DNA from: a virus
Reading direction: 5' to 3' (one strand)
Virus genome (UHGV): UHGV-1374678
Length of the DNA stretch: 64,000 nucleotides
The notes under the pieces were generated by a model. It searched no databases. It was given only the letters and a program-made list of their open reading frames with translations, and was not told the DNA's origin. Positions 10,962 to 31,052 of this stretch are shown piece by piece. Within the stretch, counting starts at the first letter, position 1. Every line of letters begins with the position of its first letter. The translations under genes were made by a program, and so were the position numbers.

Positions 10962-12549
10962 TATCTTAAATGATTGCAGAGGTATGTATGAGGAAGAAAT
11001 TTTTAATACAATTCTTGAACAAAGAGGTATTGATGATATTGAAGAGTTTCTTCGTCCTACAGAAAAAAATCTATTACCATTAGATAGCTTGGTTAATATA
11101 GACTATGCTGCAAGAAGAGTTGAATTAGCTATCGAAAATAAAGAAAAAGTTGCCGTGTTAGTAGATACAGACACGGACGGAATATCATCAGGGACTATTA
11201 TAACAAGGTATTTAAACAATTTCCTGTTTACGCCAGCAGTACCATTTATTGATGAGGGTAAGAAGCATGGTCTTAAAGGACAAGATTTAAAGAAATTTAT
11301 GTCATTTGATTTACTTATTATTGTGGATAGCTTGGATAATAGCGAAAAACAATATAAAGAATTAAGTGATAATGGCGTAGATGTTATCATTCTTGATCAC
11401 CATGCAATTAACTCAAAGATTCCGTATGATGATTATGTAATCTTGGTATCGTCTCAGAGGTCATATGATAATCCACATCTTTCAGGTTCTGGTGTAGTAT
11501 GGAAGTTCTGTAAATATCTTGATAGCAAGTTTGGTACTTATTATGCAGACGAATTAATGGACTTAGCAGCGTGCGGTTTGGTATCCGACATGATGGATAT
11601 GACTGTTATGGAGAATAGATATATTGTATATCAAGGACTACAACAGATTCGTAATCCTGCAATTAAAAAGATTGTAGGAAGTTTTCCATTTAATAGTACA
11701 GCAATTTCTTTTAGTATTGCGCCAATTATTAATGCTGCGAATAGAATGGGTAAAAATGAAGTTGCTGTAAAAGCCTTTCTTGCAGACGAAAATAAGACGG
11801 TTCTTAAATACATTAAAGAATTAAAAGGCTGTAAAGAAGCTCAGAATGAAGAAGTAGATAGATTACTTCCTGATGTGATTGAGCAATGTGAACAACAATT
11901 ACATAAAAAAATGATTACAGTTTTAATTGATACTCCATATGGGGTAGCAGGATTACTTGGAAATAAATTACTAGAAAAATACAAACGACCAATCATTGTA
12001 TTAAAGGATGTTGGTAATAAATATGCTGGTTCTATGAGAGCTATTGGAGTCGATGATTTTAGAAAAATATGCAACGACAGTCACTTAGCCAAAGTTGATG
12101 GACATGAACTTGCAGCAGGAATTCAAATTAAGAAAAACGATTTCGAACAATTCTTATCTTATATCGAGAACAATCTTCACGAATTAAAATTTGATACAAC
12201 GGTTACTGTAGATGTTCAGATTGATGTATCTGACATTACAAGAAAACTAATTGACTACATTAAGCAGATTGACTTGGTGTCTGGCGAAAACTTTAAATCT
12301 GTACGATTCTTTGTTGATGGAATTACAGATTATGAGATTGGTCAGATGAGCAATTATAAGCATCTTGTAGTTAAACCGAATGACTATTTACAGATTATTA
12401 AGTGGAACTTCAATGGATCTTTTGATGAATATGAAGACCATAGCATGATGAATGATGAGCTAGAAGTTGTTTGCAGCCTGGATTCAGGTTTCCTTGGTAG
12501 AAAGTTTGTGTTGAAAGCAGTGTGTGATGAAATTGGAGAGACTTGTTAA
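10939..12549 (+). CDS. RecJ-like ssDNA exonuclease (DHH phosphoesterase family)
   Basis: DHH motifs VLVDTDTDGISSG and IILDHH; DHHA1-like C-terminal region. Confidence 0.8.
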   Translation: MMMTKNYNILNDCRGMYEEEIFNTILEQRGIDDIEEFLRPTEKNLLPLDSLVNIDYAARRVELAIENKEKVAVLVDTDTDGISSGTIITRYLNNFLFTPAVPFIDEGKKHGLKGQDLKKFMSFDLLIIVDSLDNSEKQYKELSDNGVDVIILDHHAINSKIPYDDYVILVSSQRSYDNPHLSGSGVVWKFCKYLDSKFGTYYADELMDLAACGLVSDMMDMTVMENRYIVYQGLQQIRNPAIKKIVGSFPFNSTAISFSIAPIINAANRMGKNEVAVKAFLADENKTVLKYIKELKGCKEAQNEEVDRLLPDVIEQCEQQLHKKMITVLIDTPYGVAGLLGNKLLEKYKRPIIVLKDVGNKYAGSMRAIGVDDFRKICNDSHLAKVDGHELAAGIQIKKNDFEQFLSYIENNLHELKFDTTVTVDVQIDVSDITRKLIDYIKQIDLVSGENFKSVRFFVDGITDYEIGQMSNYKHLVVKPNDYLQIIKWNFNGSFDEYEDHSMMNDELEVVCSLDSGFLGRKFVLKAVCDEIGETC

Positions 12550-16364: not shown

Positions 16365-16634
16365 ATGAATTACGAGACTCAATATTACAAAGGGATTCCA
16401 TTAAATCTGATAAAAAGAAAATATGGAAACAGAAATGCGAAACGATTTGTAATTAATCATACAAATCAAAACGTATGGATTCCGAATAAACATCTTGAAG
16501 AAGATGGAACAATTAAATTTATGGAAGATATAGATTATGTATTTAGAAAATCGATACGACAATTAGAATTGGCTGGAATTACTCAACCAATTATAGGTAT
16601 TAAAAGACGAACAATAATGAGAATAAATGAATAA
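16365..16634 (+). CDS. hypothetical protein
   Basis: 89-aa ORF packed between neighbours with overlapping stop/start. Confidence 0.5.
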   Translation: MNYETQYYKGIPLNLIKRKYGNRNAKRFVINHTNQNVWIPNKHLEEDGTIKFMEDIDYVFRKSIRQLELAGITQPIIGIKRRTIMRINE

Positions 16635-17382
16635 AGTAAAAGTTTTCGAAGAACTTCTAACAAAGTTTGAAACAGAAGAGATTAAGAATTATTGCGAAGA
16701 TATGATTAATGATATTCCAGATTATATCTTCATGATTCCAAGTAGCACATCACTTAAATATCATAACGCAACACAGTGTAAGACACACGGACAGCTAATG
16801 CATATTCTTATGTTTGCTGAGATTATGAATTACATACTTGACTTGGAATATGTTAAAGAAAAGACTAATGAAAGACAGAGAGATTGTCTAAGATGTACAC
16901 CAATTTTTCACGATGCTATTAAGTGTGGGACAAATGGATCTCAGTATACTGTGCATGATCATCCGTTGCTTGCTGGTAAATGGATCAGAGATACAGTCGT
17001 TGAACACGATATTGACAAGGAGACAAAAGAATATATTGCAAGATTATGTGAAAGCCATTCTGGACAGTGGATTTCGAATAAACGAAGCAGTGTTATATTA
17101 CCTAAACCAGAAAACGATGAGCAGTTTTTGGTTCATCTGTGTGATTACTTATCAAGCAGATCAAATATTGATATGACATATTCCGATGAAGTATATGATG
17201 CGCTTGGCGGTATTGAAGTTACAAAAGAAGATCTTCCAGATATTAATGAATACAAATTAACTTTTGGTAAACATGCTGGCATGACATTGCCGGAAATTCA
17301 GGATATTGCTCCTGGATATATTAGATGGGCAAAAGAGAATATTACTAGAGAACCTGTAAGAAGTTTATTGGCTCAAATGTAA
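16627..17382 (+). CDS. HD-domain phosphohydrolase with C-terminal DUF3820-like motif
   Basis: H...HD metal motifs (KYHN, FHDAIK, VHDH); C-terminal FGKHAGMTLPEI...YIRWAKEN. Confidence 0.6.
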   Translation: MNKVKVFEELLTKFETEEIKNYCEDMINDIPDYIFMIPSSTSLKYHNATQCKTHGQLMHILMFAEIMNYILDLEYVKEKTNERQRDCLRCTPIFHDAIKCGTNGSQYTVHDHPLLAGKWIRDTVVEHDIDKETKEYIARLCESHSGQWISNKRSSVILPKPENDEQFLVHLCDYLSSRSNIDMTYSDEVYDALGGIEVTKEDLPDINEYKLTFGKHAGMTLPEIQDIAPGYIRWAKENITREPVRSLLAQM

Positions 17383-18250: not shown

Positions 18251-18411
18251 GTAACGTAAAAATATACACAGTCGATGATGAAGAACCAAATTGTAACAGA
18301 TGTGATCATGTATGTGATTCCGATATAGTGTGTCAACAGTATTGTGGAAACGAACATTATTGGAATGGATATTCACGAACTGAATTTATTGAAGATAGGA
18401 GAACCAAATGA
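18247..18411 (+). CDS. small Cys-rich protein (54 aa), translationally coupled on both sides (ATGA overlaps)
   Basis: MSNVKIYTVDDEEPNCNRCDHVCDSDIVCQQYCGNEHYW... Below the 60-aa ORF-track cutoff; start overlaps the previous stop and stop overlaps the FolD start. Confidence 0.4.
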   Translation: MSNVKIYTVDDEEPNCNRCDHVCDSDIVCQQYCGNEHYWNGYSRTEFIEDRRTK

Positions 18412-19217
18412 TTAAAATTTCATGTAAAGAATACGCAGCTAATCTAAAAGAAGAATTAAAAGAGTTATGTGAAAAATCACTAAGACAGCGTTGCCTTACA
18501 GTAATTCAGATTGGGAATGACGCAGCAAGTAACTCTTATGTAAATGGCAAACGAAAAGATTGTGAGTATGTTGGTGTCAAGTTTAATCATGTACATATTA
18601 AAGATTATGAAAACCTTGATGAATCAGATCTATGCCAAATTATTAAAGAACTTGATAATTCAAAGGAAGTTGATGGAATCATTATTCAGCTTCCTATTCC
18701 AGACAAATACAACGTAAAAACATTACAGCAATTCATCAGTCCTGAAAAAGATGTTGATGGCTTCAGAAAGGATTCACTTTACAATCCATGCACTCCGCAG
18801 GGAATTATGGATTGGCTCGAAGCTAATGACATTGATTTAAGAGGTAAGTTAGTAACTGTATTAGGAAGAAGTGAGATAGTAGGTAAGCCACTTGTAAACA
18901 TGTTGATTGATAAGGGTGCAACAGTTATTAATTGCAATAGTAAGACACCAAAAGATTATATGGGAAGCTTTATGGCAATGTCAGACATTGTTGTTTCTGC
19001 TATTGGAAAGCCTAAGAATTTTGATTATACCTGGTTCGATGATGAGACTATTATCATAGATGTTGGAATCAACAGGGACGAAGATGGAAAACTGTGCGGA
19101 GATATAGATAAAGAAGATGTTGATGGTTTTTTCGGTGAATTATGCTACGTAACACCTGTTCCTGGTGGTGTTGGTCTGTTAACAAGGGTTACATTACTGA
19201 AAAATGTGATGAGATAA
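18408..19217 (+). CDS. folD: bifunctional methylene-THF dehydrogenase / methenyl-THF cyclohydrolase FolD
   Basis: Motifs ASNSYVNGKRK, DGIIIQLPIP, KDVDGF, TPQGI, GRSEIVGKPL, TPVPGGVGLLT all conserved. Confidence 0.9.
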   Translation: MIKISCKEYAANLKEELKELCEKSLRQRCLTVIQIGNDAASNSYVNGKRKDCEYVGVKFNHVHIKDYENLDESDLCQIIKELDNSKEVDGIIIQLPIPDKYNVKTLQQFISPEKDVDGFRKDSLYNPCTPQGIMDWLEANDIDLRGKLVTVLGRSEIVGKPLVNMLIDKGATVINCNSKTPKDYMGSFMAMSDIVVSAIGKPKNFDYTWFDDETIIIDVGINRDEDGKLCGDIDKEDVDGFFGELCYVTPVPGGVGLLTRVTLLKNVMR

Positions 19218-19250
19218 GCAGATGAAAGAATCGTTTCATTAGGAGGAAAT

Positions 19251-19517
19251 ATGGAGACACTATGTATTTTAATGATTATTGCCTGCGTTGTTGTTTCAAT
19301 TCTCTTTGTTGTAGACCTAGTTCTATGCGACACAAAAGAAGTTGTTTGGAAAAGGAAAAGGTTTACAGCAGATAAGGCTAGAAAGATATCTAATGATTAT
19401 TCTGAAGACATTGACTTTATTGAGAAAGAAATCAGACAGGCTGCTAAACAAAACAAAACTTCTGTAGAACTGACTATTGACAGTGAAAAAAGTAGTAAAA
19501 CATTTCGAGAACGCTAA
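19251..19517 (+). CDS. hypothetical protein with N-terminal TM helix
   Basis: RBS AGGAGGAAAT ATG; hydrophobic N-terminus. Confidence 0.5.
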   Translation: METLCILMIIACVVVSILFVVDLVLCDTKEVVWKRKRFTADKARKISNDYSEDIDFIEKEIRQAAKQNKTSVELTIDSEKSSKTFRER

Positions 19518-19531
19518 ATTTGTTGTAACAC

Positions 19532-19717
19532 ATGTTGATAAACGTATTTACAACATTGATTGGAACAATGATAAAAAAAATAAAAGATATTAGAGAATAT
19601 TCAATAGAGAAAATAATTGATCCTATAACATTAGAACTTCGAGTCAGCATTGAAGATTTCAGACGCTGGCTTGGAGTTGATGAAAAGAAGATTTGGTTAC
19701 ACACTGGAGGAAAATAA
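19532..19717 (+). CDS. hypothetical small protein
   Basis: ORF track only. Confidence 0.35.
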   Translation: MLINVFTTLIGTMIKKIKDIREYSIEKIIDPITLELRVSIEDFRRWLGVDEKKIWLHTGGK

Positions 19718-19719
19718 AA

Positions 19720-20412
19720 ATGGGAACAGTAATAATCACAAAAGACACAACAAAATATCCTATCACAATGATTGGACGATATGCAGGTGTATGTTGGGGA
19801 GCAAATACATCTGACAATGAGAAAAATTATAAACGTGGTTTAGATTGTATCGAAAGTGAACACGGAAGAACATGGGAATTTCCAGACGTATATGCAATTA
19901 TTGATGGATATTCAGCAAAGGTTTTACGTGAATGGTATACACATGTAGGAGGTTTACCAACTAGATTACAAGCATCTACAAGATATATTAATTATTCTAA
20001 GGGTGAAGGGTTCAAATATGTAACTCCACCTACAATTGCAAATAATAAGGATGCCTTGGCAGAATGGTCATTGATGATGAGTAATATTAATGACATGATT
20101 AGCAAATTTATTAATGTGTATAATATTCCGGTCGAAGATGCGACTATGGCATTACCTATAGCATATCAAAGTAAAATGGTAGAAAAACGTAATTTCAGAA
20201 ACGTTGTTGATATGTCATTTCAGAGAACTTGCACAAGAGCATATTGGGAATATAGAAATCAGTTAATGAAGGATTATCTTAATGCATTAAGAGAATATTC
20301 AGAAGAATGGAAGACATTGATTGATATGACATGCAAGCCAAAATGCGAGAAGACTGGATTCTGTACAGAAAAGAAGACATGTGGAAGAAAACCAAGAAAA
20401 GACGAAAAATAG
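19720..20412 (+). CDS. thyX: ThyX-like (Thy1 family) flavin-dependent thymidylate synthase homologue with atypical signature motif
   Basis: Thy1-like architecture (SEHGRTWEF for HETPFEH; REWYTHVGG...STRY aligns to RQWFRHR...SxRY). The RHR motif appears replaced by THV. RBS GGAGGAAAATAAAA ATG at the internal start. Confidence 0.6.
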   Translation: MGTVIITKDTTKYPITMIGRYAGVCWGANTSDNEKNYKRGLDCIESEHGRTWEFPDVYAIIDGYSAKVLREWYTHVGGLPTRLQASTRYINYSKGEGFKYVTPPTIANNKDALAEWSLMMSNINDMISKFINVYNIPVEDATMALPIAYQSKMVEKRNFRNVVDMSFQRTCTRAYWEYRNQLMKDYLNALREYSEEWKTLIDMTCKPKCEKTGFCTEKKTCGRKPRKDEK

Positions 20413-20605
20413 GAGGATATCCATTATGAACAAAAATATCGAAAAAGTAATTTTAAATAATCAGAAAATAATCATGAGGGCATTACGCACAATTGTGTCA
20501 GAAAAATACAATAATGACGATAATTCCAAGTTGGATTGTGACCTGCTTGGATACAGAATTGAGAAAACAGGCGAACTTTTAAGAACATTGGAAGGTGAAA
20601 ATTAA
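20381..20605 (+). CDS. hypothetical small protein
   Basis: RBS AGGAGGATATCCATT ATG; overlaps the thyX-like 3' end. Confidence 0.45.
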   Translation: MEENQEKTKNRRISIMNKNIEKVILNNQKIIMRALRTIVSEKYNNDDNSKLDCDLLGYRIEKTGELLRTLEGEN

Positions 20606-20811
20606 TGAGGGATCCGAATAGAACATACCCATTTTGCAGAGAACTAGCAATCATTTGGAGTGATAAATATCCTGATATGAGATTTGGTCAGCTTATGTAT
20701 AACTTTATTGTTTGGTGTAGCAATACAAAGAAACGTGATATTTTCTTTCCAGAAGAAAAAGAATTTATGGAACTATTTAAAGAGTTTTGTGGAGTGAAAG
20801 ATGATGAATAA
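20605..20811 (+). CDS. hypothetical small protein
   Basis: ATGA overlap coupling with both neighbours. Confidence 0.5.
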   Translation: MRDPNRTYPFCRELAIIWSDKYPDMRFGQLMYNFIVWCSNTKKRDIFFPEEKEFMELFKEFCGVKDDE

Positions 20812-22768
20812 AGTAGATAGAATTAAAGAATTGATTTCAACACTTAACAAAGCGTCAGATGCTTACTATAACAGTGGTGATCCTATTATGACAGACTATG
20901 AATGGGATAATTTGTATGATGAGCTTGTAAAATTGGAAGAAGAAACTGGCGTTGTTTATCCTAATAGTCCTACGCAGCAGGTTGGATATACTATAGTAGA
21001 CAAAATCAACGAAGTAGAACATAACCATCCAATGCTTTCTCTTAATAAAACCAAATCTTCTGGTGAATTAATCAGGTTTGCAGGAAAAAAGGATTGTGTA
21101 TTATCAGTAAAATGCGATGGTTTAACATGCAGTTTAGGTTATAAAAATGGCAAGCTGATCAGCGCAGAGACAAGAGGAAACGGAGTAAGTGGATGCGATG
21201 TATTAATCAATGTTCTCACAATTGCAAACGTGCCACATGAGATTCCGTATAAAGAAGACTTAATTATTGACGGAGAAGTTGTTATTGATTGGAATACATT
21301 TAATAAAATCAACGAAAATCTTCCAGAAGATAAGAAGTATAAACATCCTAGAAACCTTGTATCTGGAAGTCTTACATTACTTGATAGCAAAGAGGCATCT
21401 AATAGAAATATGAGATTCATTGCTTGGAGAGTAATTAAAGGTTTTTCACATAAATCTATGTTTTTTGATTTAAAAGAAGCCGAGAAGAATGGATTTGAAG
21501 TTGTTCCAATGTTTACATATTCAAACAATTCAACTGACAAGGAAAACATTGATGCAATATTAGAAAGAATCAGAGATATGGCTGATGAAGAAAGCATCCC
21601 TTATGACGGAGCAGTTATGGCTGTTGATGATTATAGAATTGCTGAATCAATGGGTCGCACAAATAAGTTCTTCAGACATTCCTATGCTTATAAATATGAA
21701 GATTCTTTATATGAAACAGTTTTAACTGATATTGAATGGAACACATCTAAGACAGGCTTGATTAATCCTGTAGCAATCTTCCAACCAGTCGATTTGTCAG
21801 GTGCTATTACTTCAAGAGCAACGCTTCATAATATTACTTACATTAAGAACATGATGCTTGGTATCGGTGATCGAATTCGTATTTATCGTTCAAATATGGT
21901 AATTCCAAAAGTGCATGATAGCATTGATAAGTCTGGTAATTTCACAATCCCGTCAACCTGTCCTATCTGTGGAAAACCTACAAAGATTGTAAAAGATAAC
22001 AATTCGGAAGTTCTTATGTGTACGAATGATAACTGTGCAGGTAAACTTCTTGGCAAACTTTGTCATGCAGTCTCGAAGAACGCACTGAATATCGAAGGGT
22101 TATCAGAAGCAACAATTCAGAAATTCATTGACCTTGGCTGGTTAAAATCAATCAGAGATATCTATTACTTACATCTTCATAAGATGGACATGTATAAACT
22201 TGAAGGTTTTGGAAGAAAATCAGTAGACAAGCTGCTCAGTTCTATTGAAGATAGCAGAAATAGTGATTTAGTTAGATACATTTATGCACAGTCAATTCCT
22301 TTAATTGGACATACAGCAAGTAAAGCTATCTCAAAAATGTGTGATGGTGACTTAAATACATTTATTGAATATATGTCAAAAGGTGCAAAAGCATTCGGAA
22401 AGATTGATGGTGTTGGTTCTGAAATGGTTAAATCTCTTAGTAAATGGTGGGATATCAACTACTTAGAATTTGTAGATACATCAACAGTATTTACATTTAA
22501 GAAGAAAGAGACAGTAAATGTATCAGGATTAGACTTGACTGGAAAAGTATTTGTAATTACAGGAAGTCTTACTCAATTCAAGAATCGTGATGAAATGAAA
22601 GAAAGAATTGAGAGTCTTGGTGGAAAAGTATCTGGAAGCGTATCTGCTAAGACAACCGCATTGATTAATAATGATATTGAATCTACTAGCAGCAAGAATA
22701 AGAAAGCAAAGAGTCTGAACGTTCCTATCCTCACGGAGAATATGTTTGTTGAAAAATATTTACAGTAA
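20801..22768 (+). CDS. ligA: NAD-dependent DNA ligase LigA
   Basis: Adenylation KxDG (VKCDGLTCSL); N-terminal Ia domain (YY...DYEWDNLYDEL); Zn finger CPICG...C..NC; C-terminal BRCT-like region. Confidence 0.9.
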   Translation: MMNKVDRIKELISTLNKASDAYYNSGDPIMTDYEWDNLYDELVKLEEETGVVYPNSPTQQVGYTIVDKINEVEHNHPMLSLNKTKSSGELIRFAGKKDCVLSVKCDGLTCSLGYKNGKLISAETRGNGVSGCDVLINVLTIANVPHEIPYKEDLIIDGEVVIDWNTFNKINENLPEDKKYKHPRNLVSGSLTLLDSKEASNRNMRFIAWRVIKGFSHKSMFFDLKEAEKNGFEVVPMFTYSNNSTDKENIDAILERIRDMADEESIPYDGAVMAVDDYRIAESMGRTNKFFRHSYAYKYEDSLYETVLTDIEWNTSKTGLINPVAIFQPVDLSGAITSRATLHNITYIKNMMLGIGDRIRIYRSNMVIPKVHDSIDKSGNFTIPSTCPICGKPTKIVKDNNSEVLMCTNDNCAGKLLGKLCHAVSKNALNIEGLSEATIQKFIDLGWLKSIRDIYYLHLHKMDMYKLEGFGRKSVDKLLSSIEDSRNSDLVRYIYAQSIPLIGHTASKAISKMCDGDLNTFIEYMSKGAKAFGKIDGVGSEMVKSLSKWWDINYLEFVDTSTVFTFKKKETVNVSGLDLTGKVFVITGSLTQFKNRDEMKERIESLGGKVSGSVSAKTTALINNDIESTSSKNKKAKSLNVPILTENMFVEKYLQ

Positions 22769-22781
22769 GGAGATATAGAGA

Positions 22782-23345
22782 ATGATTTATGTAATTATTG
22801 GACGCACAGCTAGTGGAAAAGACACGATTGTATCAAAACTAATCAAATCTGGCTGCAAACGTATTGTAACTTACACAAGCAGACCAATGCGTAAGAAAGA
22901 AAAGAATGGTGAGACTTACCACTTTGTAACAAAAGAAGAATTTGAAGCGTTAATTCAGAGTGGATTCTTCGCAGAGTGGAGGTCTTACGACACAGTAGAT
23001 GGTGTTTGGTATTATGGATCATCAATAGATAGCTATGATACAGACGAAGATAGAATCATCATTTTAAATCCGGATGGATTTTCAAAAATCAAAAATATCT
23101 TAGAACCTGAAAAGGTCAAATCAATTTATGTATATTCAAACATAAAAACAATCAGAAACAGATTAAAAAAACGTGGAGATAAGAAAGAAGAAGCTGAAAG
23201 ACGCATTGAGCATGACTTAATTGACTTCAAAGGGCTTGAAAATGAAGTAGATAAGATTGTGTACAACAACGAAGATAATGACATTGACGATGTAGTTCAG
23301 AAAATTCTTTCTTATATAACAGAGAATAAACAAGTGGAGGAATAG
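22782..23345 (+). CDS. guanylate-kinase-like (d)NMP kinase
   Basis: P-loop GRTASGKDT; TSRPMRKKEKNGETYHFV...EF resembles the Gmk TTRxPRxGE..G.DYHFV motif. Confidence 0.7.
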   Translation: MIYVIIGRTASGKDTIVSKLIKSGCKRIVTYTSRPMRKKEKNGETYHFVTKEEFEALIQSGFFAEWRSYDTVDGVWYYGSSIDSYDTDEDRIIILNPDGFSKIKNILEPEKVKSIYVYSNIKTIRNRLKKRGDKKEEAERRIEHDLIDFKGLENEVDKIVYNNEDNDIDDVVQKILSYITENKQVEE

Positions 23346-23349
23346 TTAA

Positions 23350-23544
23350 TTGGTATCAACGACAGCACAATTGGCTAGAGGCTTGCACAACTTAGGGGAT
23401 AATTTTGTAATTGCTGTGGATGAAGATGGTGTGGAATACATCATCGATTCCATTGGCAAAGTGTGTAGACATTATGATAACCCATACGAATATTGTTCAG
23501 CACTTAAGTTAAAGAGAGCAAGTTCTGGCTGTATTAAAAGATAG
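23350..23544 (+). CDS. hypothetical small protein
   Basis: ORF track only. Confidence 0.4.
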   Translation: MVSTTAQLARGLHNLGDNFVIAVDEDGVEYIIDSIGKVCRHYDNPYEYCSALKLKRASSGCIKR

Positions 23545-23556
23545 GAGAATATAGAA

Positions 23557-23790
23557 ATGTATATTAATTTTGCAACAGTTAATGACGTGGCATTGTTCAC
23601 AACAACGTGTGATAAGTACGATGAAGATATAGATATTTACTTTGGTCACATGTGTTTTGATGCAAAATCGCTCGGAGCTAATATGAATCTTATTGGCAAA
23701 GATGCAAAAGTTGTTATTCATACGGATGATGAGTCTGTGAAGAATAAATTTAAAGAGGATGTAAATTTGTGGATTGTAAAGAAAGGGTGA
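23557..23790 (+). CDS. hypothetical small protein (intact paralogue of the frameshifted ORF that follows)
   Basis: RBS AGGAGAATATAGAA ATG. Confidence 0.5.
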   Translation: MYINFATVNDVALFTTTCDKYDEDIDIYFGHMCFDAKSLGANMNLIGKDAKVVIHTDDESVKNKFKEDVNLWIVKKG

Positions 23791-23796
23791 TTAAAA

Positions 23797-24035
23797 ATGT
23801 GGATTCTATTAAATGATACCACAGAGTTGGTTGCATTTAGAAATGGTGCAAGATTCTTTGACGGAACAATCGAAGTGCAGCAGGGCAGATATATTATAGA
23901 TGCCAAGAGTACACTTGCCTGTTTAGTCTTGATCTTTCTAAACCTGTAGATGTGACTATTGCATGTGACAGTGAGAGAGTAAAGGATAATTTCTATGATT
24001 ATGTCAAGAAGTGGAGTGTAGAAGATGTCATTTAG
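23797..24035 (+). pseudogene. frameshifted paralogue of 23557..23790 (two frames needed to read a full-length homologue)
   Basis: Frame 1 gives MWILLNDTTELVAFRNGARFFDGTIEVQQGRYIIDAKSTLA then stops at 23947. The -1 frame continues LDLSKPVDVTIACDSERVKDNFYDYVKKWSVEDVI, aligning to the C-terminus of the upstream gene (NLIGKDAKVVIH...). Confidence 0.4.
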
Positions 24036-24390
24036 ATATTCTGCATACAATACAACAATTTTCAATTGTCCATGTCCATGCTGTCTAACGTTGAAAGAAT
24101 GTAAAGCTATACCCCCATCAACATGTCAAAGGACATTAGATAGATATGTCGATTATTACGAAAACAAGAAAAAAGTAACAAATCGAATAAAGTATTCTGA
24201 AACAAAGAAATCTAAAGCTATCCGTGAAAAACTTGAGAAAGATTCAAAAGACATTGAGAAGTTAATTCTGCAATTATCAAAAGACGGATGTAAAAACGAC
24301 AATAATGAACTTGTTTTTCTCACGTCCAGATATTCATACATAAAAGAATTACTTAAAAAATATTGGAAAGATGGTGAGAAAAATGAGTAG
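24025..24390 (+). CDS. hypothetical protein
   Basis: ORF track; Cys-rich N-terminus, K-rich C-terminus. Confidence 0.45.
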   Translation: MSFRYSAYNTTIFNCPCPCCLTLKECKAIPPSTCQRTLDRYVDYYENKKKVTNRIKYSETKKSKAIREKLEKDSKDIEKLILQLSKDGCKNDNNELVFLTSRYSYIKELLKKYWKDGEKNE

Positions 24391-24979
24391 ACCTAAATTG
24401 TTCTTAGATTTTGACAATACAATCGTAGATACAATTGCAGCAGTTGTGTCTCTATACAATGAAGATTACGCATCTCATGAAGATTTTGTTCAGGTTGATC
24501 CTAAAGATGTCACAAGCTGGGAATTTATTGAATGTAACCTTGCTACATATGAAGAGATAGACAAGTATTTTGGTGATGAAAGATTCTTCCAAAGAGTTAA
24601 GTTGTATCCAAGCACAGGACAAGTTCTCCGTTCATTATCTCACAGGTATGATATTACTATTGTTTCACATGGGTATGCTAATAATTTGAAACTAAAAGAA
24701 GAATGGGTAAAAGATAAACTATTCAAAGAAATCTTTGATAACAGTTGTAATGCTGAATTCATTGGTGTTGATTGGGAGACACATAATGACAAATCTCATG
24801 TAGACATGTCTAATTCTATTTTCGTAGATGATTCTATCAGAAATCTCGAAACAAGTAGTGCAAAATATAAAATCTTATATGGAGAATATATGGATTGGAA
24901 CAATACAAATATTGAGTTTATTCGATGCAAGAATTGGCTCGATTTGAATAATCAGATTTGTCTGATTGAAAGGTTTTAA
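24371..24979 (+). CDS. HAD-family 5'(3')-deoxyribonucleotidase (NT5C-like)
   Basis: DxDxT motif LFLDFDNTIVD; overall NT5C-like layout. Confidence 0.7.
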   Translation: MVRKMSRPKLFLDFDNTIVDTIAAVVSLYNEDYASHEDFVQVDPKDVTSWEFIECNLATYEEIDKYFGDERFFQRVKLYPSTGQVLRSLSHRYDITIVSHGYANNLKLKEEWVKDKLFKEIFDNSCNAEFIGVDWETHNDKSHVDMSNSIFVDDSIRNLETSSAKYKILYGEYMDWNNTNIEFIRCKNWLDLNNQICLIERF

Positions 24980-24992
24980 GGAGGTGTGTGAA

Positions 24993-25169
24993 ATGGTAGT
25001 AACTAAATTTTTATGTTTTTTAGTTGGTGCAGTTGTTGGAGTTATAATGACATGCTTATGTAATGTTAATTATGACGATTCTCATGAAAGAGAATGGAAT
25101 GAACTGAAAAGTGACATGGAAGAATTCGAATTGGACGAAGATTTGAAAGAAACAAAGGAGGGCAAATAA
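24993..25169 (+). CDS. small membrane protein
   Basis: RBS AAGGAGGTGTGTGAA ATG; TM segment FLCFLVGAVVGVIMTCLC. Confidence 0.45.
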   Translation: MVVTKFLCFLVGAVVGVIMTCLCNVNYDDSHEREWNELKSDMEEFELDEDLKETKEGK

Positions 25170-25171
25170 TA

Positions 25172-28100
25172 ATGGTAAGAGTTATTAAAAGGGATTGCTC
25201 TGAAGTTGATTTTGATAAAAATAAAATTTCAACAGCAATCTTAAAGGCTATGAAGAATGGTAGTGGAATTGTCAAACCAAAGATTGCAGAATCTATTGCT
25301 GATGAGATTGAAGAAGAGTGTAAAGATCGAGAAGAGATTGATATTTCTGAGATCGAAGCAATGGTATTTGATAAGCTGATTACCAAAAAACAAAGACTTA
25401 CGGCAAGAGCTTATGAGGGTTATAGAAGTACAAGAGAATTCCAGAGAGAGAATGAGAATACAGTTGACGAGGAAATTCTTGGAATTGTAGAAGCAAACAA
25501 CGAAGAATGGAAAGATGAAAATGCGAACAAAAACCCAGCATTAAACCCTACAATTCGTGATTATATTGCTGGATCTGTAAGCAAAGACGCAACAAAAAGA
25601 TTTTTATTATCTCCAGAAATTATTCAGAGTCATTCAGAAGGAATCATTCATTTCCATGATTCTGATTACTTTATTCAGCATATGCATAACTGCGGATTAG
25701 TAAATCTTGAAGATATGCTTCAGAATGGTACTGTTATTAGTGAAACAATGATTGAAAAGCCACATAGTTTTTCTACAGCATGTACCGTGACTACTCAGAT
25801 CATTGCTCAAGTTGCATCTAGTCAGTATGGTGGACAGAGTATTTCACTTGCACACTTAGCACCATTTGTAGATATTTCAAGACAGAAAATTAGAGAAGAA
25901 GTAGAACATGCGTTGGTTGATATTGTAGATACCGTTCTTGACGGAACAGAATTAGAAAATGTAATTGATGAGATTACAGAAGAACGCCTTAAGAAAGAGA
26001 TTACAAAAGGTGTTCAAACAATTCAATATCAGCTAATTACGTTGATGACAACCAACGGACAAGCACCATTTATCACAATTTTCATGTATTTAAATGAAGC
26101 AAAGAGTGAGAGAGAAAAAAAAGACTTGGCAATGTTGATCGAAGAAACGCTTCGTCAGAGAAAACTTGGTGTAAAAAATGAAGATGGTGTCTATATTGCA
26201 CCTGCATTTCCAAAGCTTATTTATGTTCTTGAGGATGATAATTGTGATGAATCAACTGAATATTGGTACTTAACAGAACTTGCTGCGGAATGTACGTCAA
26301 AAAGATTAGTTCCGGATTACATCTCTGAAAAAGTAATGAAAAAACTTAAGGGAGATGTGTATACGTGCATGGGATGTGTAGACGGGAAAGAAGTTGTTAC
26401 ATATACATATAACAATAATCTTTATGTTGAATCATTTGAAAGAATGTGGAATAGACTTTCTGATAGATTTGAGATTAAACACCAATATAGTGATAGTAAT
26501 CCGAATTTATATATGGATTTGAATGATGTAGAAATCTATGATACAGACAAGGGTTTTGTCAACACAGAAAGGATAATTAGAAACATATCATCAAATTGGC
26601 TTGATATTAATTTTTCAAATGGTAGAAGATTATTATGTACAGAAGACCATCCGCTTACATTGAGAGATGGAAGAACGGTTCATGCTTCAGAGTTAAAACT
26701 AAATGATAAAATCCTTATCAATTCATATCAGTATAACGAAGAAAACATTGTATTTAATGAAGATAAGGCATGGTTATTAGGCTTTATGCTTTGTGATGGA
26801 TGTTATCAAGGTTCTTTATTTTCTTCAATTGCAGCAGAAAATGAAGATGAAATTGCAGATGAATTTTCAGAAACAATGAAGAAATATTTTGATCTCGATA
26901 TTGAAAAGAAATTACAACAAAGAGGTAAGAAAGGAACATATTACGATTTGATTGCACATAGTCAGAATGAAAAAATATCTGTGTATTGTAATTATTTCGC
27001 TAAAAAATTCGAGGGTCTGAATAAGATTGATAGACATGTTCCTAATGAAGTATTTTCATGGAATTATTCGTCAAAACTTGCTTTTCTAGCTGGAATGATT
27101 GATGCAGATGGGTACATTAATAGTTCTCAGAATAAAGGATTTTCTATAGTTCAAATTGGTTCCACAAACAAAGAACTTGCATTACAGCAAATGGCACTTG
27201 CACAGTCTTTAGGTATGCCAGCAAAGCTGTACCATAACCATTACAATAAACGTAACCCAGAGTTGATTAGATACAGAGTTGAGTTTTATCCAACAGATGA
27301 ACTAATTAATTATATTGTATGTAAAAAGAAATATGATAATTATATTGATTCAAATGCATCTAGTTATAATCATGAATCTGAAGTTACTGAAATCAACAAA
27401 ATTAATAAAAAAATGTTTTCTTACGATGTAACAACAACAAGTGAACATTTTGAAATTAGCGGAATTTATAGTCATAATTGTAGATCATTTTTAACTGTTG
27501 ATAGATTTTCTGATAAAGTTGGAAACATTTCTAACGCTAAAAACTTTGATGGAAAACATAAATATTACGGAAGATTTAATCAGGGCGTTGTCACAATCAA
27601 TCTTCCAGATATTGCATTTTCATCTGATGGTGATATGGATAAGTTTTGGGGAATTTTCGAAGAAAGAACAGAATTATGCCATAAGGCTTTAAGGGCTAGA
27701 CATAATCGTTTACTTGGAACTTCTTCTGATATTGCACCAATTCTATGGCAGAACGGAGCATATGCAAGACTTAAAAAACATGAACCAATTGACAAGCTTT
27801 TATTTGATGGATATTCAACAATTTCTCTTGGATATGCAGGACTTTACGAGTGTGTGAAATATATGACAGGAAAATCCCATACAGATGGTGATGTAGGAGA
27901 AAAGTTTGGGTTAGAGGTAATGCAAGCATTAAATGATAAATGTAATCAGTGGAAAGAAGCGGAAAATATTGATTATAGTTTGTATGGAAGTCCAATCGAA
28001 AGCACTACATATAAGTTTGCAAAGTGTTTAAAGAATAGATTTGGAAATGATATTTTTATTAAACTTGATGGATTTGATAGAAATTATATTACAAACAGCT

Positions 28101-28531
28101 ATCATGTTCCTGTATTTGAAAAAATCACAGCGTTTGATAAATTTAAAATTGAGTCAAAATTTCAAAACCTCAGTCCAGGAGGTGCAATTTCCTATTGCGA
28201 AATCCCATCAATTAACGTCAATGTTCATGCGTTATTGGAAGTAATCAAATTTATTTATGACAATATCATGTATGCAGAAATCAATACGAAAGATTGTTAT
28301 TGTGAAGTGTGTGGATTTGATGGAGATATTCCACTTATTGATGATAATAATGGCAAACTTGTATGGGAATGCCCTAATTGTGGTAACACTGACAATACAA
28401 AAATGGATATCGCATTTAGGGTCTGTGGTTATGTTGGTACTGCAAAAAATGGTGGAAATCAAGGAAGATATGGCGACATTCATGATAGAGTTTACCACAT
28501 CAATGATTTCGAATACGAGGAAAACAAATAA
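25172..28531 (+). CDS. nrdD: anaerobic ribonucleoside-triphosphate reductase NrdD (class III), interrupted in-frame by an intein
   Basis: ATP-cone N-terminus; glycyl-radical motif RVCGYVG; C-terminal Zn ribbon CEVCG...CPNCG. 1119 aa because of a 368-aa intein. Confidence 0.9.
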   Translation: MVRVIKRDCSEVDFDKNKISTAILKAMKNGSGIVKPKIAESIADEIEEECKDREEIDISEIEAMVFDKLITKKQRLTARAYEGYRSTREFQRENENTVDEEILGIVEANNEEWKDENANKNPALNPTIRDYIAGSVSKDATKRFLLSPEIIQSHSEGIIHFHDSDYFIQHMHNCGLVNLEDMLQNGTVISETMIEKPHSFSTACTVTTQIIAQVASSQYGGQSISLAHLAPFVDISRQKIREEVEHALVDIVDTVLDGTELENVIDEITEERLKKEITKGVQTIQYQLITLMTTNGQAPFITIFMYLNEAKSEREKKDLAMLIEETLRQRKLGVKNEDGVYIAPAFPKLIYVLEDDNCDESTEYWYLTELAAECTSKRLVPDYISEKVMKKLKGDVYTCMGCVDGKEVVTYTYNNNLYVESFERMWNRLSDRFEIKHQYSDSNPNLYMDLNDVEIYDTDKGFVNTERIIRNISSNWLDINFSNGRRLLCTEDHPLTLRDGRTVHASELKLNDKILINSYQYNEENIVFNEDKAWLLGFMLCDGCYQGSLFSSIAAENEDEIADEFSETMKKYFDLDIEKKLQQRGKKGTYYDLIAHSQNEKISVYCNYFAKKFEGLNKIDRHVPNEVFSWNYSSKLAFLAGMIDADGYINSSQNKGFSIVQIGSTNKELALQQMALAQSLGMPAKLYHNHYNKRNPELIRYRVEFYPTDELINYIVCKKKYDNYIDSNASSYNHESEVTEINKINKKMFSYDVTTTSEHFEISGIYSHNCRSFLTVDRFSDKVGNISNAKNFDGKHKYYGRFNQGVVTINLPDIAFSSDGDMDKFWGIFEERTELCHKALRARHNRLLGTSSDIAPILWQNGAYARLKKHEPIDKLLFDGYSTISLGYAGLYECVKYMTGKSHTDGDVGEKFGLEVMQALNDKCNQWKEAENIDYSLYGSPIESTTYKFAKCLKNRFGNDIFIKLDGFDRNYITNSYHVPVFEKITAFDKFKIESKFQNLSPGGAISYCEIPSINVNVHALLEVIKFIYDNIMYAEINTKDCYCEVCGFDGDIPLIDDNNGKLVWECPNCGNTDNTKMDIAFRVCGYVGTAKNGGNQGRYGDIHDRVYHINDFEYEENK
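26375..27478 (+). mobile_element. intein with LAGLIDADG homing-endonuclease domain inside nrdD
   Basis: Begins with Cys after ...YTCMG; blocks LLGFMLCDGCY and LAFLAGMIDADGYI; ends ...YSHN followed by extein Cys (CRSFLT). Confidence 0.8.
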
Positions 28532-29076
28532 TGAATTATTCACAGATTCGCAGCATGGATATTTCCAACGGGGATGGCATAGGCGTTGCCCTCTTCGTAC
28601 AAGGCTGTAACTTTCATTGTAAAAATTGTTTCAACCAAGATACATGGGATTTTAATGGCGGTACGAAATTCACCAAAGAAACGAAAGAAACATTTCTTGA
28701 ATTGATGGACAAGCCATATATTACAAGAGTCTCATTTCTTGGCGGAGAATGTCTTGCAGGTAAAAACCTTGAAGGAATCTACGATCTTGTAAAAGACGTA
28801 AAAAAAATGCATCCGGACAAAAAGCTCTGGATGCATACAGGGTATAATTGGGAACTAATTTTTTGCCCAATTGTAACACATGATTTTAATCCCGAACGAG
28901 ATCGACTAATTGAGTTACGCCAAGAAATTGTTAAAATGCTTGATGTTTTAGTTGACGGAAAATACATTCATGAATTAAAAGATATGAATTTGAAATTCCG
29001 TGGGAGTAAAAATCAGCGTGTAATTGACGTACAGGAATCACTAAAACGGGACAAAATAGTTCTGTATCTTAATTAA
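28531..29076 (+). CDS. nrdG: anaerobic RNR activating protein NrdG (radical SAM)
   Basis: Cx3Cx2C cluster GCNFHCKNC; typical size; ATGA overlap with the nrdD stop. Confidence 0.9.
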   Translation: MNYSQIRSMDISNGDGIGVALFVQGCNFHCKNCFNQDTWDFNGGTKFTKETKETFLELMDKPYITRVSFLGGECLAGKNLEGIYDLVKDVKKMHPDKKLWMHTGYNWELIFCPIVTHDFNPERDRLIELRQEIVKMLDVLVDGKYIHELKDMNLKFRGSKNQRVIDVQESLKRDKIVLYLN

Positions 29077-30211: not shown

Positions 30212-30553
30212 ATGAAACAATTAAGACTTGATAAAAGATGTACGCCTAAAATTTTGCAAGATTATGGGTTTGTAAAACATGGATTAAATTACAAACTTTC
30301 TATTCCATTGTATGCATATAAGAGAACTCCGGTTATCAGTGTAAATTTTCTCGTTTCAGGAACAAATGATTATATTAGATATGATGTAATAGATAATAAT
30401 TCTGACATGATTTACTCGGCTTATTATGATACAAGTCAAATCAGCGAGAACAAAGTTTTAGACAAAATTAAACGAAAACTTGATGAAGTTTTTGAAGAAA
30501 TGGTAGAGAAAAATATTTTAGAAGAGGAGAACGAAAATGCAGAAGATTGCTAA
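30212..30553 (+). CDS. hypothetical protein
   Basis: RBS TTGGAGAGTGTGAAAT ATG. Confidence 0.55.
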   Translation: MKQLRLDKRCTPKILQDYGFVKHGLNYKLSIPLYAYKRTPVISVNFLVSGTNDYIRYDVIDNNSDMIYSAYYDTSQISENKVLDKIKRKLDEVFEEMVEKNILEEENENAEDC

Positions 30554-31052
30554 ATTTGAAAAAGTAAGTTGGGAGCAGTTTTATAAAGATTGGACAGATA
30601 CATTTCCTTCAATCGGCACACCAGACGAAGCAAAAATTAAACAGATTTATTATGGAATTAATACTCCAAAACGTGCAACGAAAGGATCAGCCGGATATGA
30701 TTTTTATGCACCAATTGAATTTAGTTTGCAGCCTGGTGAGACGATTAAAATTCCTACTGGAATTCGATGCGAGATGAATGAAGATTGGGTTCTTATGTGT
30801 TTTCCACGCAGCGGATTAGGATTTAAGTATCGCATGAAGCTCGATAATTCAGTTGGAATAATTGATAGCGATTACGCTTTCTCTGATAATGAGGGGCATA
30901 TATTTATTAAGTTTACTAATGAAGGTAATAAAAAATTAGAAGTTTTCGAGGGTAATGGTTTTGCACAAGGAATTTTCCTTCAGTATGGAATCACAGAAGA
31001 TGATAATTGTGATGTAATTCGTAATGGTGGTTTTGGATCTACAACAAAATAA
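30537..31052 (+). CDS. dut: dUTP diphosphatase (trimeric dUTPase)
   Basis: Motifs KGSAGYDF, PRSGLGFK, GIIDSDY, RNGGFGST. Confidence 0.9.
   Translation: MQKIAKFEKVSWEQFYKDWTDTFPSIGTPDEAKIKQIYYGINTPKRATKGSAGYDFYAPIEFSLQPGETIKIPTGIRCEMNEDWVLMCFPRSGLGFKYRMKLDNSVGIIDSDYAFSDNEGHIFIKFTNEGNKKLEVFEGNGFAQGIFLQYGITEDDNCDVIRNGGFGSTTK

What the first reader, a model, noticed from the sequence alone, without database searches (positions are those of the whole stretch)
18408..25000. Unusually complete phage nucleotide-metabolism module with a ThyX-like enzyme whose signature motif is altered
FolD supplies methylene-THF. It is followed by a Thy1/ThyX-family protein in which the RHR of the RHR-x7-8-S motif appears replaced by THV (REWYTHVGGLPTRLQASTRY). 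Nearby are a guanylate-kinase-like dNMP kinase and an NT5C deoxyribonucleotidase. Together with NrdDG, dUTPase and the HD hydrolase, this is either a dTMP-boosting module or, given the altered ThyX active site, a pathway for a modified pyrimidine.
Basis: partly seen in the sequence, partly recalled or inferred. Interest (0 to 1): 0.55.

Follow-up and report, generated by a model that had tools for sequence, protein, structure and literature searches.

The report
Phage thymidylate module with rewired ThyX
A gut phage carries an ordinary DNA-precursor gene set whose thymidylate synthase (ThyX) really lacks the textbook RHR motif, but the same altered enzyme is a housekeeping gene in gut Clostridia, so it most likely still makes normal dTMP, not an exotic base.

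Summary
Window 19720-20412 encodes a 230-aa ThyX-fold protein (Pfam Thy1 E=1.8e-24; AF2 pLDDT 92.8; TM 0.72 to T. maritima ThyX). The RHR of the RHR-x7-S signature is T-H-V and the loop to the Ser is 9 residues. A third canonical arginine (Tm R147) is also missing.

FolD, a guanylate-kinase-like kinase, NT5C, NrdD/NrdG, dUTPase and an HD protein are all confirmed.

The altered motif is not peculiar to this phage. It marks a very large clade: over 7,000 90%-identity clusters and 429 viral contigs. The clade includes chromosomal genes of Oscillospiraceae/Clostridia MAGs that sit among housekeeping genes (ValS-FolC-YgiQ-ThyX; MazG-ThyX; RadC-ThyX…IF3-L35-L20).

Phage and cellular copies share 79 identically conserved positions. 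No difference falls at an aligned ThyX ligand-contact position.

Across 50%-identity representatives, the three lost arginines are matched by three gained basic residues (R82, R50, K156), with intermediates.

Best reading: a working flavin-dependent thymidylate synthase of a "rewired" clostridial subfamily, exchanged between host and phage (direction unresolved), in a dTMP supply module. The modified-pyrimidine idea has no positive support. FolD is a recent add-on, present only in the five closest relatives.

The parts
16627..17382 (+). HD-domain phosphohydrolase with an ExoX-like C-terminal domain
   Evidence: Pfam HD E=6.8e-5 and ExoX-like_C E=2.2e-8; PHROG 5889. Syntenic upstream of ThyX in 28 of 84 loci.
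18408..19217 (+). FolD, bifunctional methylene-THF dehydrogenase / methenyl-THF cyclohydrolase
   Evidence: Pfam THF_DHG_CYH (E=4.5e-29) and THF_DHG_CYH_C (E=2.5e-44); PHROG 7320 E=1.4e-70. The Y-x-x-x-K, DVDGF, GRSxxVGxP and PGGVG motifs are visible in the translation. Present only in the five closest viral loci, L005-L009.
19720..20412 (+). ThyX-family flavin-dependent thymidylate synthase of the 'rewired' T-H-x subfamily (230 aa)
   Evidence: Pfam Thy1 E=1.8e-24. AF2 model pLDDT 92.8. Foldseek top hits are all ThyX, TM 0.72-0.73. A family profile hits Mtb/Tm ThyX at E=6e-26 and 2e-20. GGAGG lies upstream of the ATG at 19720.
19927..19986 (+). Altered signature REWYTHVGGLPTRLQASTRY: T74-H75-V76 in place of RHR, a 9-residue loop containing the new R82, then S86-T-R88-Y89
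   Evidence: T74 goes with a basic residue at 82 in 44 of 45 representatives, against 2 of 14 when position 74 is R (Fisher p=1e-9, not corrected for phylogeny).
20344..20382 (+). C-terminal C209-x5-C215-x5-C221, which together with C171 gives four near-invariant cysteines; a probable metal site
   Evidence: Conserved in 51-54 of 63 representatives, including RHR-bearing relatives. Absent from T. maritima ThyX.
20801..22768 (+). NAD-dependent DNA ligase (replication gene inside the block)
   Evidence: Pfam DNA_ligase_aden, OB and BRCT domains. Syntenic in 59 of 84 loci.
22782..23345 (+). Guanylate-kinase-family (d)NMP kinase
   Evidence: Pfam Guanylate_kin E=1.1e-18; PHROG 1815 E=1.6e-46. P-loop GRTASGKDT. 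Syntenic in 60 of 84 loci.
24371..24979 (+). NT5C-type 5'(3')-deoxyribonucleotidase (HAD superfamily)
   Evidence: Pfam NT5C E=1.1e-11 and HAD_2. DFDNT nucleophile motif. Present in 32 of 84 loci.
25172..28531 (+). Anaerobic ribonucleotide reductase NrdD with ATP-cone, interrupted by an intein that carries a LAGLIDADG endonuclease
   Evidence: Pfam NRDD E=2.4e-168, ATP-cone, Gly_radical, Intein_splicing, LAGLIDADG_3.
28531..29076 (+). NrdG activase (radical SAM)
   Evidence: Pfam Fer4_12 E=3.1e-43 and Radical_SAM.
30537..31052 (+). dUTPase (supplies dUMP)
   Evidence: Pfam dUTPase E=3.2e-17.

Best explanation
The block is a phage deoxynucleotide-supply module for an anaerobic (Clostridia/Oscillospiraceae) host. 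Its ThyX-like gene is a functional flavin-dependent thymidylate synthase from a divergent clostridial subfamily.

Proposed flow:
1. NrdD/NrdG reduce NTPs to dNTPs.
2. dUTPase turns dUTP into dUMP.
3. The ThyX variant methylates dUMP to dTMP, using reduced flavin and 5,10-methylene-THF.
4. FolD, where present, regenerates methylene-THF from methenyl/10-formyl-THF.
5. The guanylate-kinase-like enzyme phosphorylates dNMPs.
6. NT5C and the HD protein trim or recycle nucleotide pools.

In this subfamily the three canonical arginines that hold the FAD phosphates/flavin and the dUMP phosphate (Tm R78, R80, R147) have been replaced. Their charges are supplied from new positions:
- R82, in the lengthened substrate loop.
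- R50, at the site of the Ser/Thr that normally H-bonds the FAD phosphates.
- K156, on the strand that carries the FAD-binding Asn/Arg.

So the signature motif is lost but the chemistry is kept. Phage and host copies are closely related, so the gene has moved between them; the direction was not resolved.

Shown: gene identities, fold, residue correspondences, clade-wide conservation, cellular housekeeping contexts, covariation.
Inferred: spatial compensation by the new basic residues, dUMP-to-dTMP activity, and the pathway flow.
For: Family and fold
- Pfam Thy1 87 bits; confident ThyX fold.
- Retained equivalents of Tm H53, E58, R74, H79, S88, R90, Y91, E144, N163, R165 and R174. R174 activates dUMP (PMC8316439).

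Cellular copies
- The same T-H-x motif is present in chromosomal genes of Clostridia/Oscillospiraceae MAGs.
- L001 lies among an ABC transporter, a TrmA-like gene, an Na/H antiporter, FBA and PfkB.
- L085: ValS-FolC-YgiQ-ThyX.
- L088: MazG-ThyX.
- L099: RadC-ThyX…IF3-L35-L20-DprA-TopA.
- NCBI names these proteins FAD-dependent thymidylate synthase.

Phage versus cell
- 79 positions are identically conserved in the close phage set and in the set retrieved with the cellular L001 protein.
- Only 5 positions are conserved but different, and none aligns with a ThyX ligand-contact residue.
- Phage copies such as P0341 are 78% identical to the cellular L001 protein.

Charge relocation across 50%-identity representatives
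- Pattern for positions (78, 80, 147 | 82, 50, 156): 'ooo|+++' in 34 representatives and '+++|ooo' in 3. The typed T. maritima sequence shows the same canonical pattern.
- Intermediates '+oo|o++', '++o|o++' and '++o|+o+' also occur.
- Pairwise Fisher p=1e-9, 1e-5 and 0.015.
- The loop lengthens stepwise, 7 to 8 to 9 residues.
- The RHR motif and the Ser at the R50 position contact the same FAD phosphate/ribityl groups (PMC6514825).

No other thymidylate synthase
- No ThyA-family gene in the window, in 84 related loci, or in the whole 176-kb relative MT835469.1.
- The variant is therefore the only thymidylate-synthase-like gene in that relative.
Against: - No member of this subfamily has been assayed, as far as I could find.
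- The protein scores below the NCBIfam TIGR02170 thyX equivalog cut-off: 47.6 bits against 87.9.
- I could not read model coordinates, so the claim that R82, R50 and K156 occupy the space of the lost arginines is inferred from alignment, strand periodicity and published contacts. It was not measured.
- I could not scan whole bacterial genomes, so I have not shown that the variant is their only thymidylate synthase.
- The Fisher tests ignore phylogenetic non-independence.
Confidence: 0.78

Rival explanations
1. The altered ThyX makes a non-canonical pyrimidine nucleotide for the phage, for example 5-hydroxymethyl-dUMP formed by water capture of the exocyclic-methylene intermediate. The kinase, dUTPase and NT5C (as a dTMP/dUMP nucleotidase) would then channel it into DNA, as in an SPO1-like scheme.
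For: - Two of the three signature residues and a third active-site Arg are replaced.
- The protein scores below the thyX equivalog cut-off.
- No other thymidylate synthase is present in the window or in the full-length relative.
- The accompanying kinase, dUTPase and 5'-nucleotidase set resembles hmU-phage logic (own knowledge).
- The ThyX mechanism passes through an exocyclic methylene intermediate (PMC8989533).
Against: - The same motif and the same 79 conserved positions occur in chromosomal housekeeping copies in Clostridia, where bulk base replacement is not expected.
- No phage-specific substitution falls at an aligned ThyX ligand-contact position.
- The literature read here attributes 5-hmdUMP synthesis to a ThyA-family enzyme (PMC8989533), and no ThyX-type hydroxymethylase turned up in the searches.
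- No further modification genes appear among the Pfam hits of the window.
Confidence: 0.07
2. The subfamily, cellular and phage alike, is still a uracil-C5 methylase but handles its cofactor or reductant differently. The four-Cys site could bind a metal or Fe-S centre that relays electrons from ferredoxin/flavodoxin. Alternatively, loss of the AMP-phosphate-binding arginine could mean FMN is used instead of FAD.
For: - Four near-invariant Cys (C171, C209, C215, C221) are absent from T. maritima ThyX in the alignment; the other solved ThyX sequences were not inspected.
- The RHR residues that bind the AMP and FMN phosphates are replaced (PMC6514825).
- All carriers seen are strict-anaerobe gut Clostridia or their phages.
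Against: - The Cys4 site is also present in relatives that keep RHR and pass TIGR02170 (P0227, P0260, P0267), so it is not tied to the motif change.
- It could be a purely structural Zn site.
- The gained basic residues argue that the phosphate contacts are kept.
- There is no experimental or structural evidence.
Confidence: 0.12
3. The gene is a decayed, non-functional ThyX remnant carried passively by the phage.
For: Signature motif residues are lost; the score is below the equivalog cut-off.
Against: - The gene is full length and gives a confident model.
- More than 7,000 clusters share 79 near-invariant positions, including the new motif itself.
- Its syntenic position is conserved in hundreds of phages.
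Confidence: 0.02

Closest known systems
Canonical flavin-dependent thymidylate synthase ThyX (PF02511 / TIGR02170; T. maritima TM0449, PDB 1O26; M. tuberculosis ThyX, PDB 3GWC)
   Same: - Same fold (TM 0.72-0.73).
- Same family by Pfam and by profile search.
- Retained H53, E58, R74, H79, S88, R90, Y91, N163, R165 and R174 equivalents.
- Same genomic role next to dUTPase, RNR and a kinase.
   Different: - RHR becomes T-H-V/I, and the RHR-to-Ser loop has 9 residues, not 7.
- The Tm R147 equivalent is lost.
- New conserved R50, R82 and K156.
- C-terminal Cys-x5-Cys-x5-Cys plus C171.
- Below the TIGR02170 cut-off.
- phmmer with the single sequence finds no solved ThyX.
RHR-bearing, Cys-tailed ThyX relatives (P0227, P0260, P0267) and intermediates (P0187, P0196, P0127, P0211)
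   Same: Same length, same four Cys, same C-terminal PKC…C.E…CG tail. They share the family's other conserved residues.
   Different: They keep some or all of R78/R80/R147 and lack some or all of R82/R50/K156. They document the stepwise path from the canonical to the rewired constellation.
T4-type phage nucleotide-precursor gene sets (td/frd/gp1 dNMP kinase/NrdAB/NrdDG/dUTPase-dCTPase); FolD-carrying phages (Enterococcus EF1-like, Lak phages)
   Same: The logic of a phage-encoded dNTP supply line is the same. FolD is already annotated in some phages (PHROG 7320).
   Different: This module uses ThyX, not ThyA with DHFR. FolD replenishes methylene-THF. Only the anaerobic RNR is present. (The T4 comparison rests on my own knowledge.)
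ThyA-family dUMP/dCMP hydroxymethylases of phages with modified pyrimidines (SPO1 gp29, T4 gp42, ViI/M6 systems)
   Same: They occupy the same place in a nucleotide module and use methylene-THF.
   Different: The fold is unrelated (ThyA). No ThyA-family gene is present here or in the full-length relative. The paper read here assigns 5-hmdUMP synthesis to a ThyA-family enzyme (PMC8989533).
PolB (Streptomyces cacaoi UMP C5-methylase, PDB 4P5A), a ThyX-fold enzyme with altered substrate
   Same: ThyX fold. It shows that the family can change substrate (own knowledge). It is the weakest PDB hit of the family profile (E=3.7e-8).
   Different: It is much more distant than the true ThyX structures, and lies in a secondary-metabolite context. 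Here the context is DNA-precursor genes or housekeeping genes.

Membership tests
ThyX / Thy1 (PF02511), flavin-dependent thymidylate synthase | Match to the family HMM above the curated threshold | tested here: met
   Pfam Thy1 87 bits against a cut-off of 24.8, E=1.8e-24, covering 180 of 191 profile positions.
ThyX / Thy1 (PF02511), flavin-dependent thymidylate synthase | ThyX fold | tested here: met
   AF2 model pLDDT 92.8, pTM 0.87. The Foldseek PDB hits listed (top 50) are all ThyX, probability 1.00, TM 0.64-0.73.
ThyX / Thy1 (PF02511), flavin-dependent thymidylate synthase | Signature motif RHR-x7-8-S | tested here: not met
   T74-H75-V76, then 9 residues, then S86. Only the His and the Ser survive.
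ThyX / Thy1 (PF02511), flavin-dependent thymidylate synthase | Substrate-activating and dUMP-binding residues (Tm R174, R90, S88, Y91, R74) | tested here: met
   R169, R88, S86, Y89 and R70 align to them, and each is conserved in at least 53 of 63 representatives.
ThyX / Thy1 (PF02511), flavin-dependent thymidylate synthase | Third canonical phosphate-binding Arg (Tm R147 / Mtb R172) | tested here: not met
   T142 in the window protein; A, S, T or G in most of the clade.
ThyX equivalog (NCBIfam TIGR02170) | Score above the equivalog trusted cut-off | tested here: not met
   47.6 bits against 87.9. The cellular L001 copy scores 61.9. RHR-bearing relatives P0227 and P0267 pass, at 165.8 and 134 bits.
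ThyX / Thy1 (PF02511), flavin-dependent thymidylate synthase | FAD binding and dUMP-to-dTMP catalysis; homotetramer | not testable with these tools
   Needs protein biochemistry. Only inferred here from context and conservation.
FolD (PF00763 + PF02882) | Both domains above threshold, with the catalytic Y-x-x-x-K and DVDGF motifs | tested here: met
   101.5 and 150.9 bits. Motifs read directly from the translation.
Phage modified-pyrimidine pathway (ThyA-family dUMP/dCMP hydroxymethylase systems) | Presence of a ThyA-family (PF00303-like) hydroxymethylase | tested here: not met
   tblastn and phmmer --max with E. coli ThyA (checked against PDB) find nothing in the window, in 84 related loci, or in the 176-kb relative. 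The best E-value is 0.16.
Phage modified-pyrimidine pathway (ThyA-family dUMP/dCMP hydroxymethylase systems) | Non-canonical base in virion DNA | not testable with these tools
   Needs LC-MS of virion nucleosides.

The most novel reading that the evidence does not exclude
The T-H-x / Cys4 ThyX subfamily of gut Clostridia and their phages is mechanistically distinct from textbook ThyX in one of two ways. Either its flavin is held and reduced differently, for example through a metal or Fe-S centre formed by C171/C209/C215/C221 that takes electrons from ferredoxin, or with FMN rather than FAD. Or the phage copies yield a 5-substituted dUMP other than dTMP.
Probability: 0.15. Interest if true: 0.7.

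Novelty: new variant of a known kind. Interest (0 to 1): 0.3.

Why it matters
ThyX is studied as an antibacterial target, and its RHR-x7-S motif is treated as diagnostic. This work points to a very large, uncharacterised subfamily in gut Oscillospiraceae and their large phages that has lost two of the three signature residues and a third active-site arginine. It has apparently relocated the charges, and it carries a four-cysteine site not seen in T. maritima ThyX.

This matters for annotation: motif-based or equivalog-based calls miss the subfamily. It also matters for understanding which ThyX contacts are truly indispensable.

For phage biology the result is mostly deflationary. The module is a standard dTMP/dNTP supply line, and the altered motif should not be read as evidence for modified DNA.

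Tried and rejected
- phmmer of the single protein against PDB found no ThyX. A family profile was needed.
- PHROGs has no family for this ThyX variant.
- megablast of the region against 50,697 phage records gave no match. The closest deposited relative is MT835469.1, at 55% aa identity.
- The search for related loci with the diverse alignment A2 failed because it had no conserved stretch. A1 worked.
- The afdb50 fold library was unavailable, so cultured organisms carrying the variant could not be named.
- Literature searches for residue roles, ThyX variants lacking RHR, ThyX-type hydroxymethylases and Fe-S/Zn ThyX found nothing specific. Only general reviews were useful.
- The pseudogene idea is rejected on the conservation evidence.
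- dCMP as substrate was considered and set aside, because the uracil-activating Arg (Tm R174) is retained. This argument rests on my own knowledge of the ThyA N177D precedent.

Full report
**What is in the window**

The window looks like part of a large tailed phage. GC is about 0.32. There is a + strand replication/nucleotide block up to about 31 kb, then an integrase, lysis genes and tail genes on the − strand.

- FolD, 18408-19217: both Pfam domains, PHROG 7320.
- Thy1/ThyX-family gene: E=1.8e-24.
- Guanylate-kinase-family kinase, 22782-23345.
- NT5C nucleotidase, 24371-24979, with a DFDNT motif.
- HD protein, 16627-17382.
- NrdD with ATP-cone, interrupted by an intein, and NrdG.
- dUTPase, 30537-31052.

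The ThyX gene starts at the ATG at 19720, with GGAGG about 10 nt upstream. It encodes 230 aa, the length of nearly all homologues.

**The motif observation is right**

The peptide REWYTHVGGLPTRLQASTRY is encoded at 19927-19986.

A profile of 36 diverse family members hits only ThyX structures in the PDB (M. tuberculosis 3GWC E=6e-26; T. maritima 1KQ4 E=2e-20). It aligns 'y-t-h-i-i-g-t-t-r-l-q-a-S-t-r-y' to Mtb 'I-R95-H96-(gap)-R97-H-F-S-Y-S-Q-L-S105-Q-R-Y'.

That gives T74=R78, H75=H79, V76=R80, Q84=E86, S86=S88, R88=R90 and Y89=Y91. The loop has 9 residues against the canonical 7.

A further canonical arginine, Tm R147 (Mtb R172, in the 'AR..LP' helix), is T142 here.

The protein is nonetheless a confident ThyX fold: AF2 pLDDT 92.8, and Foldseek TM 0.72-0.73 to 1O26/8REO with probability 1.00.

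It is divergent. The single sequence finds no ThyX in the PDB, has no PHROG family, and scores 47.6 bits against the 87.9-bit cut-off of the NCBIfam thyX equivalog.

**The motif is a clade character, and the clade is also cellular**

- The big protein collection holds 4,767 relatives of the window protein.
- It holds 7,194 clusters at E≤1e-30 for a cellular relative.
- T-H-x with a 9-residue loop and an Arg four residues before the Ser is present in 119 of 120 close phage homologues and 120 of 120 homologues of the cellular L001 copy. That second set also contains phage contigs (see below).

A GTDB scan found the gene in Clostridia/Eubacterium MAGs. In L001, a 77-kb contig, a copy 57% identical to the window protein carries REWYTHIGGAPTRLQASTRY. 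It lies among an ABC transporter, a TrmA-like methyltransferase, an Na/H antiporter, an M23 peptidase, YgiQ, fructose-bisphosphate aldolase and PfkB.

Three other unrelated chromosomal contexts were found:
- ValS-FolC-YgiQ-ThyX (L085).
- A 103-aa MazG gene immediately upstream of ThyX (L088).
- RadC-ThyX…IF3-L35-L20-DprA-TopA (L099).

NCBI names these proteins 'FAD-dependent thymidylate synthase [Oscillospiraceae / Ruminococcaceae / Clostridia bacterium]'.

Some sequences 74-78% identical to the cellular L001 protein turn out to lie on phage contigs (P0341, P0362). Host and phage copies are therefore intermixed.

**Phage copies show no sign of a new function**

I compared 115 close phage sequences with 116 sequences retrieved with the cellular L001 protein. 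79 positions are at least 90% conserved and identical in both sets. These include R70, E71, T74, H75, R82, Q84, S86, R88, Y89, N158, R160, R169 and all four cysteines.

Only five positions are conserved but different: K67R, a G97 deletion, I131E, A148G and Y149M. None aligns with a ThyX ligand-contact residue.

**Charge relocation**

Representatives at 50% identity include relatives that keep RHR and pass TIGR02170 (P0227, P0260, P0267), as well as intermediates.

I scored basic (+) or non-basic (o) at the three canonical sites (Tm 78, 80, 147) and at three new sites (window R82, R50, K156). The counts are:

| Pattern (78, 80, 147 \| 82, 50, 156) | Representatives |
|---|---|
| ooo\|+++ | 34 |
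| ooo\|++o | 9 |
| +oo\|o++ | 6 |
| +++\|ooo | 3 |
| ++o\|o++ | 2 |
| ++o\|+o+ | 2 |

The typed T. maritima sequence (not one of the counted representatives) also shows the canonical +++|ooo pattern.

Pairwise associations:
- T74 with a basic residue at 82: [[44,1],[2,12]], p=1e-9.
- Non-basic 76 with basic 50: p=1e-5.
- Loss of R142 with basic 156: p=0.015.

These tests ignore shared ancestry, so they are descriptive. The existence of graded intermediates and the stepwise loop lengthening (7, then 8, then 9 residues) still argue for continuous selection on the same ligand contacts.

Published contacts fit this. The RHR residues H-bond the AMP phosphate, ribityl and FMN phosphate of FAD. The first Arg also touches the isoalloxazine and dUMP. 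The Ser at the position of window R50 contacts the same FAD groups from the neighbouring subunit (PMC6514825).

K156 lies two residues before the FAD-binding Asn on a predicted β-strand, so it faces the same side. This is an inference.

I could not read the model coordinates, so the spatial compensation remains inferred.

**Context in phages**

429 IMG/VR contigs, mostly 90-200 kb, carry the gene. In 80 loci the order is conserved: PolIIIα-ERCC4-HD-ThyX-(small ORF)-NAD ligase-kinase-NT5C-NrdD/G-dUTPase.

FolD is present only in the five closest relatives (L005-L009). It is inserted between HD and ThyX.

FolD occurs in 53 of 50,697 deposited phage records, for example Enterococcus EF1-like phages, Lak phages and other gut phages. 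It is uncommon but known.

No ThyA-family gene is found in the window, in the 84 loci, or in the whole 176-kb relative MT835469.1. This was tested with tblastn and with phmmer --max, best E=0.16, using an E. coli ThyA query verified against the PDB. The variant is therefore the only thymidylate-synthase-like gene in that relative.

No other base-modification genes appear among the Pfam hits of the window.

**Interpretation**

The most economical account is a working thymidylate synthase of a rewired clostridial ThyX subfamily, closely related to host copies, set in a conventional dNTP/dTMP supply module. FolD was added recently, probably to keep methylene-THF available.

The modified-pyrimidine alternative cannot be excluded for the phage without chemistry. 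Its only support is the motif change. That change is shared with housekeeping bacterial genes, and the one pathway paper I read (PMC8989533) assigns 5-hmdUMP synthesis to a ThyA-family enzyme.

One open point applies to the whole clade, including RHR-bearing relatives. Four near-invariant cysteines (C171 and C209-x5-C215-x5-C221) have no counterpart in T. maritima ThyX in the alignment. They could be a structural Zn site or something redox-active.

**Verdict**

- Observation: confirmed.
- Interpretation: partly supported. The dTMP module holds; the modified base has no positive support.
- Novelty: a new, uncharacterised variant of a known enzyme family, inside an otherwise ordinary phage module.
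- Interest: modest.

Noticed in passing
window 20230-20232 (C171) and 20344-20382 (C209-x5-C215-x5-C221): Four near-invariant cysteines in the ThyX variant. They are also present in RHR-bearing relatives that pass TIGR02170, but absent from T. maritima ThyX in the alignment. This is a probable metal (Zn or Fe-S) site of unknown role.
   Followed up: partly
window 25172-28531 (about 26500-27480 for the insert): NrdD is interrupted by an intein that carries a LAGLIDADG homing endonuclease (Pfam Intein_splicing, LAGLIDADG_3, Hom_end).
   Followed up: no
window 31752-33038 (-): A tyrosine integrase sits exactly at the strand and GC-skew switch (about 32 kb). This suggests a temperate lifestyle or a recombinase role in this large phage.
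   Followed up: no
L095 12780-13403: A related phage encodes a formate/nitrite transporter family protein (PF01226) directly after NrdG. Formate is the reductant of class III RNR and a C1 source for the folate pool (own knowledge), so this may be a phage-encoded formate channel serving the same module. The same locus has a WGR/PARP-domain protein and Dam.
   Followed up: no
L097 2261-6448 and 6703-7176: In another related phage, PolIIIα is split into two ORFs by a LAGLIDADG endonuclease gene. A Mom-family gene lies just upstream of the ThyX variant.
   Followed up: no
L088 9612-9923; L085 6637-9920: Cellular copies of the variant sit 78 bp downstream of a 103-aa MazG-family pyrophosphohydrolase (a possible dUTP/dNTP-cleaning partner), or downstream of FolC and YgiQ.
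   Followed up: partly
window 18408-19217 versus loci L005-L084: FolD is present only in the five closest viral relatives. It is inserted between the HD gene and ThyX, which indicates a recent acquisition within this phage lineage.
   Followed up: yes
window 39080-43549 (-) and 47673-54248 (-): Two very large ORFs in the tail module, 1489 aa and 2191 aa. They have no Pfam match, or only a sub-threshold SHOCT match.
   Followed up: no
window 10939-12549 (+): A DHH/DHHA1 (RecJ-like) phosphoesterase lies immediately upstream of PolIIIα, next to DnaB-like and AAA_24 genes.
   Followed up: no
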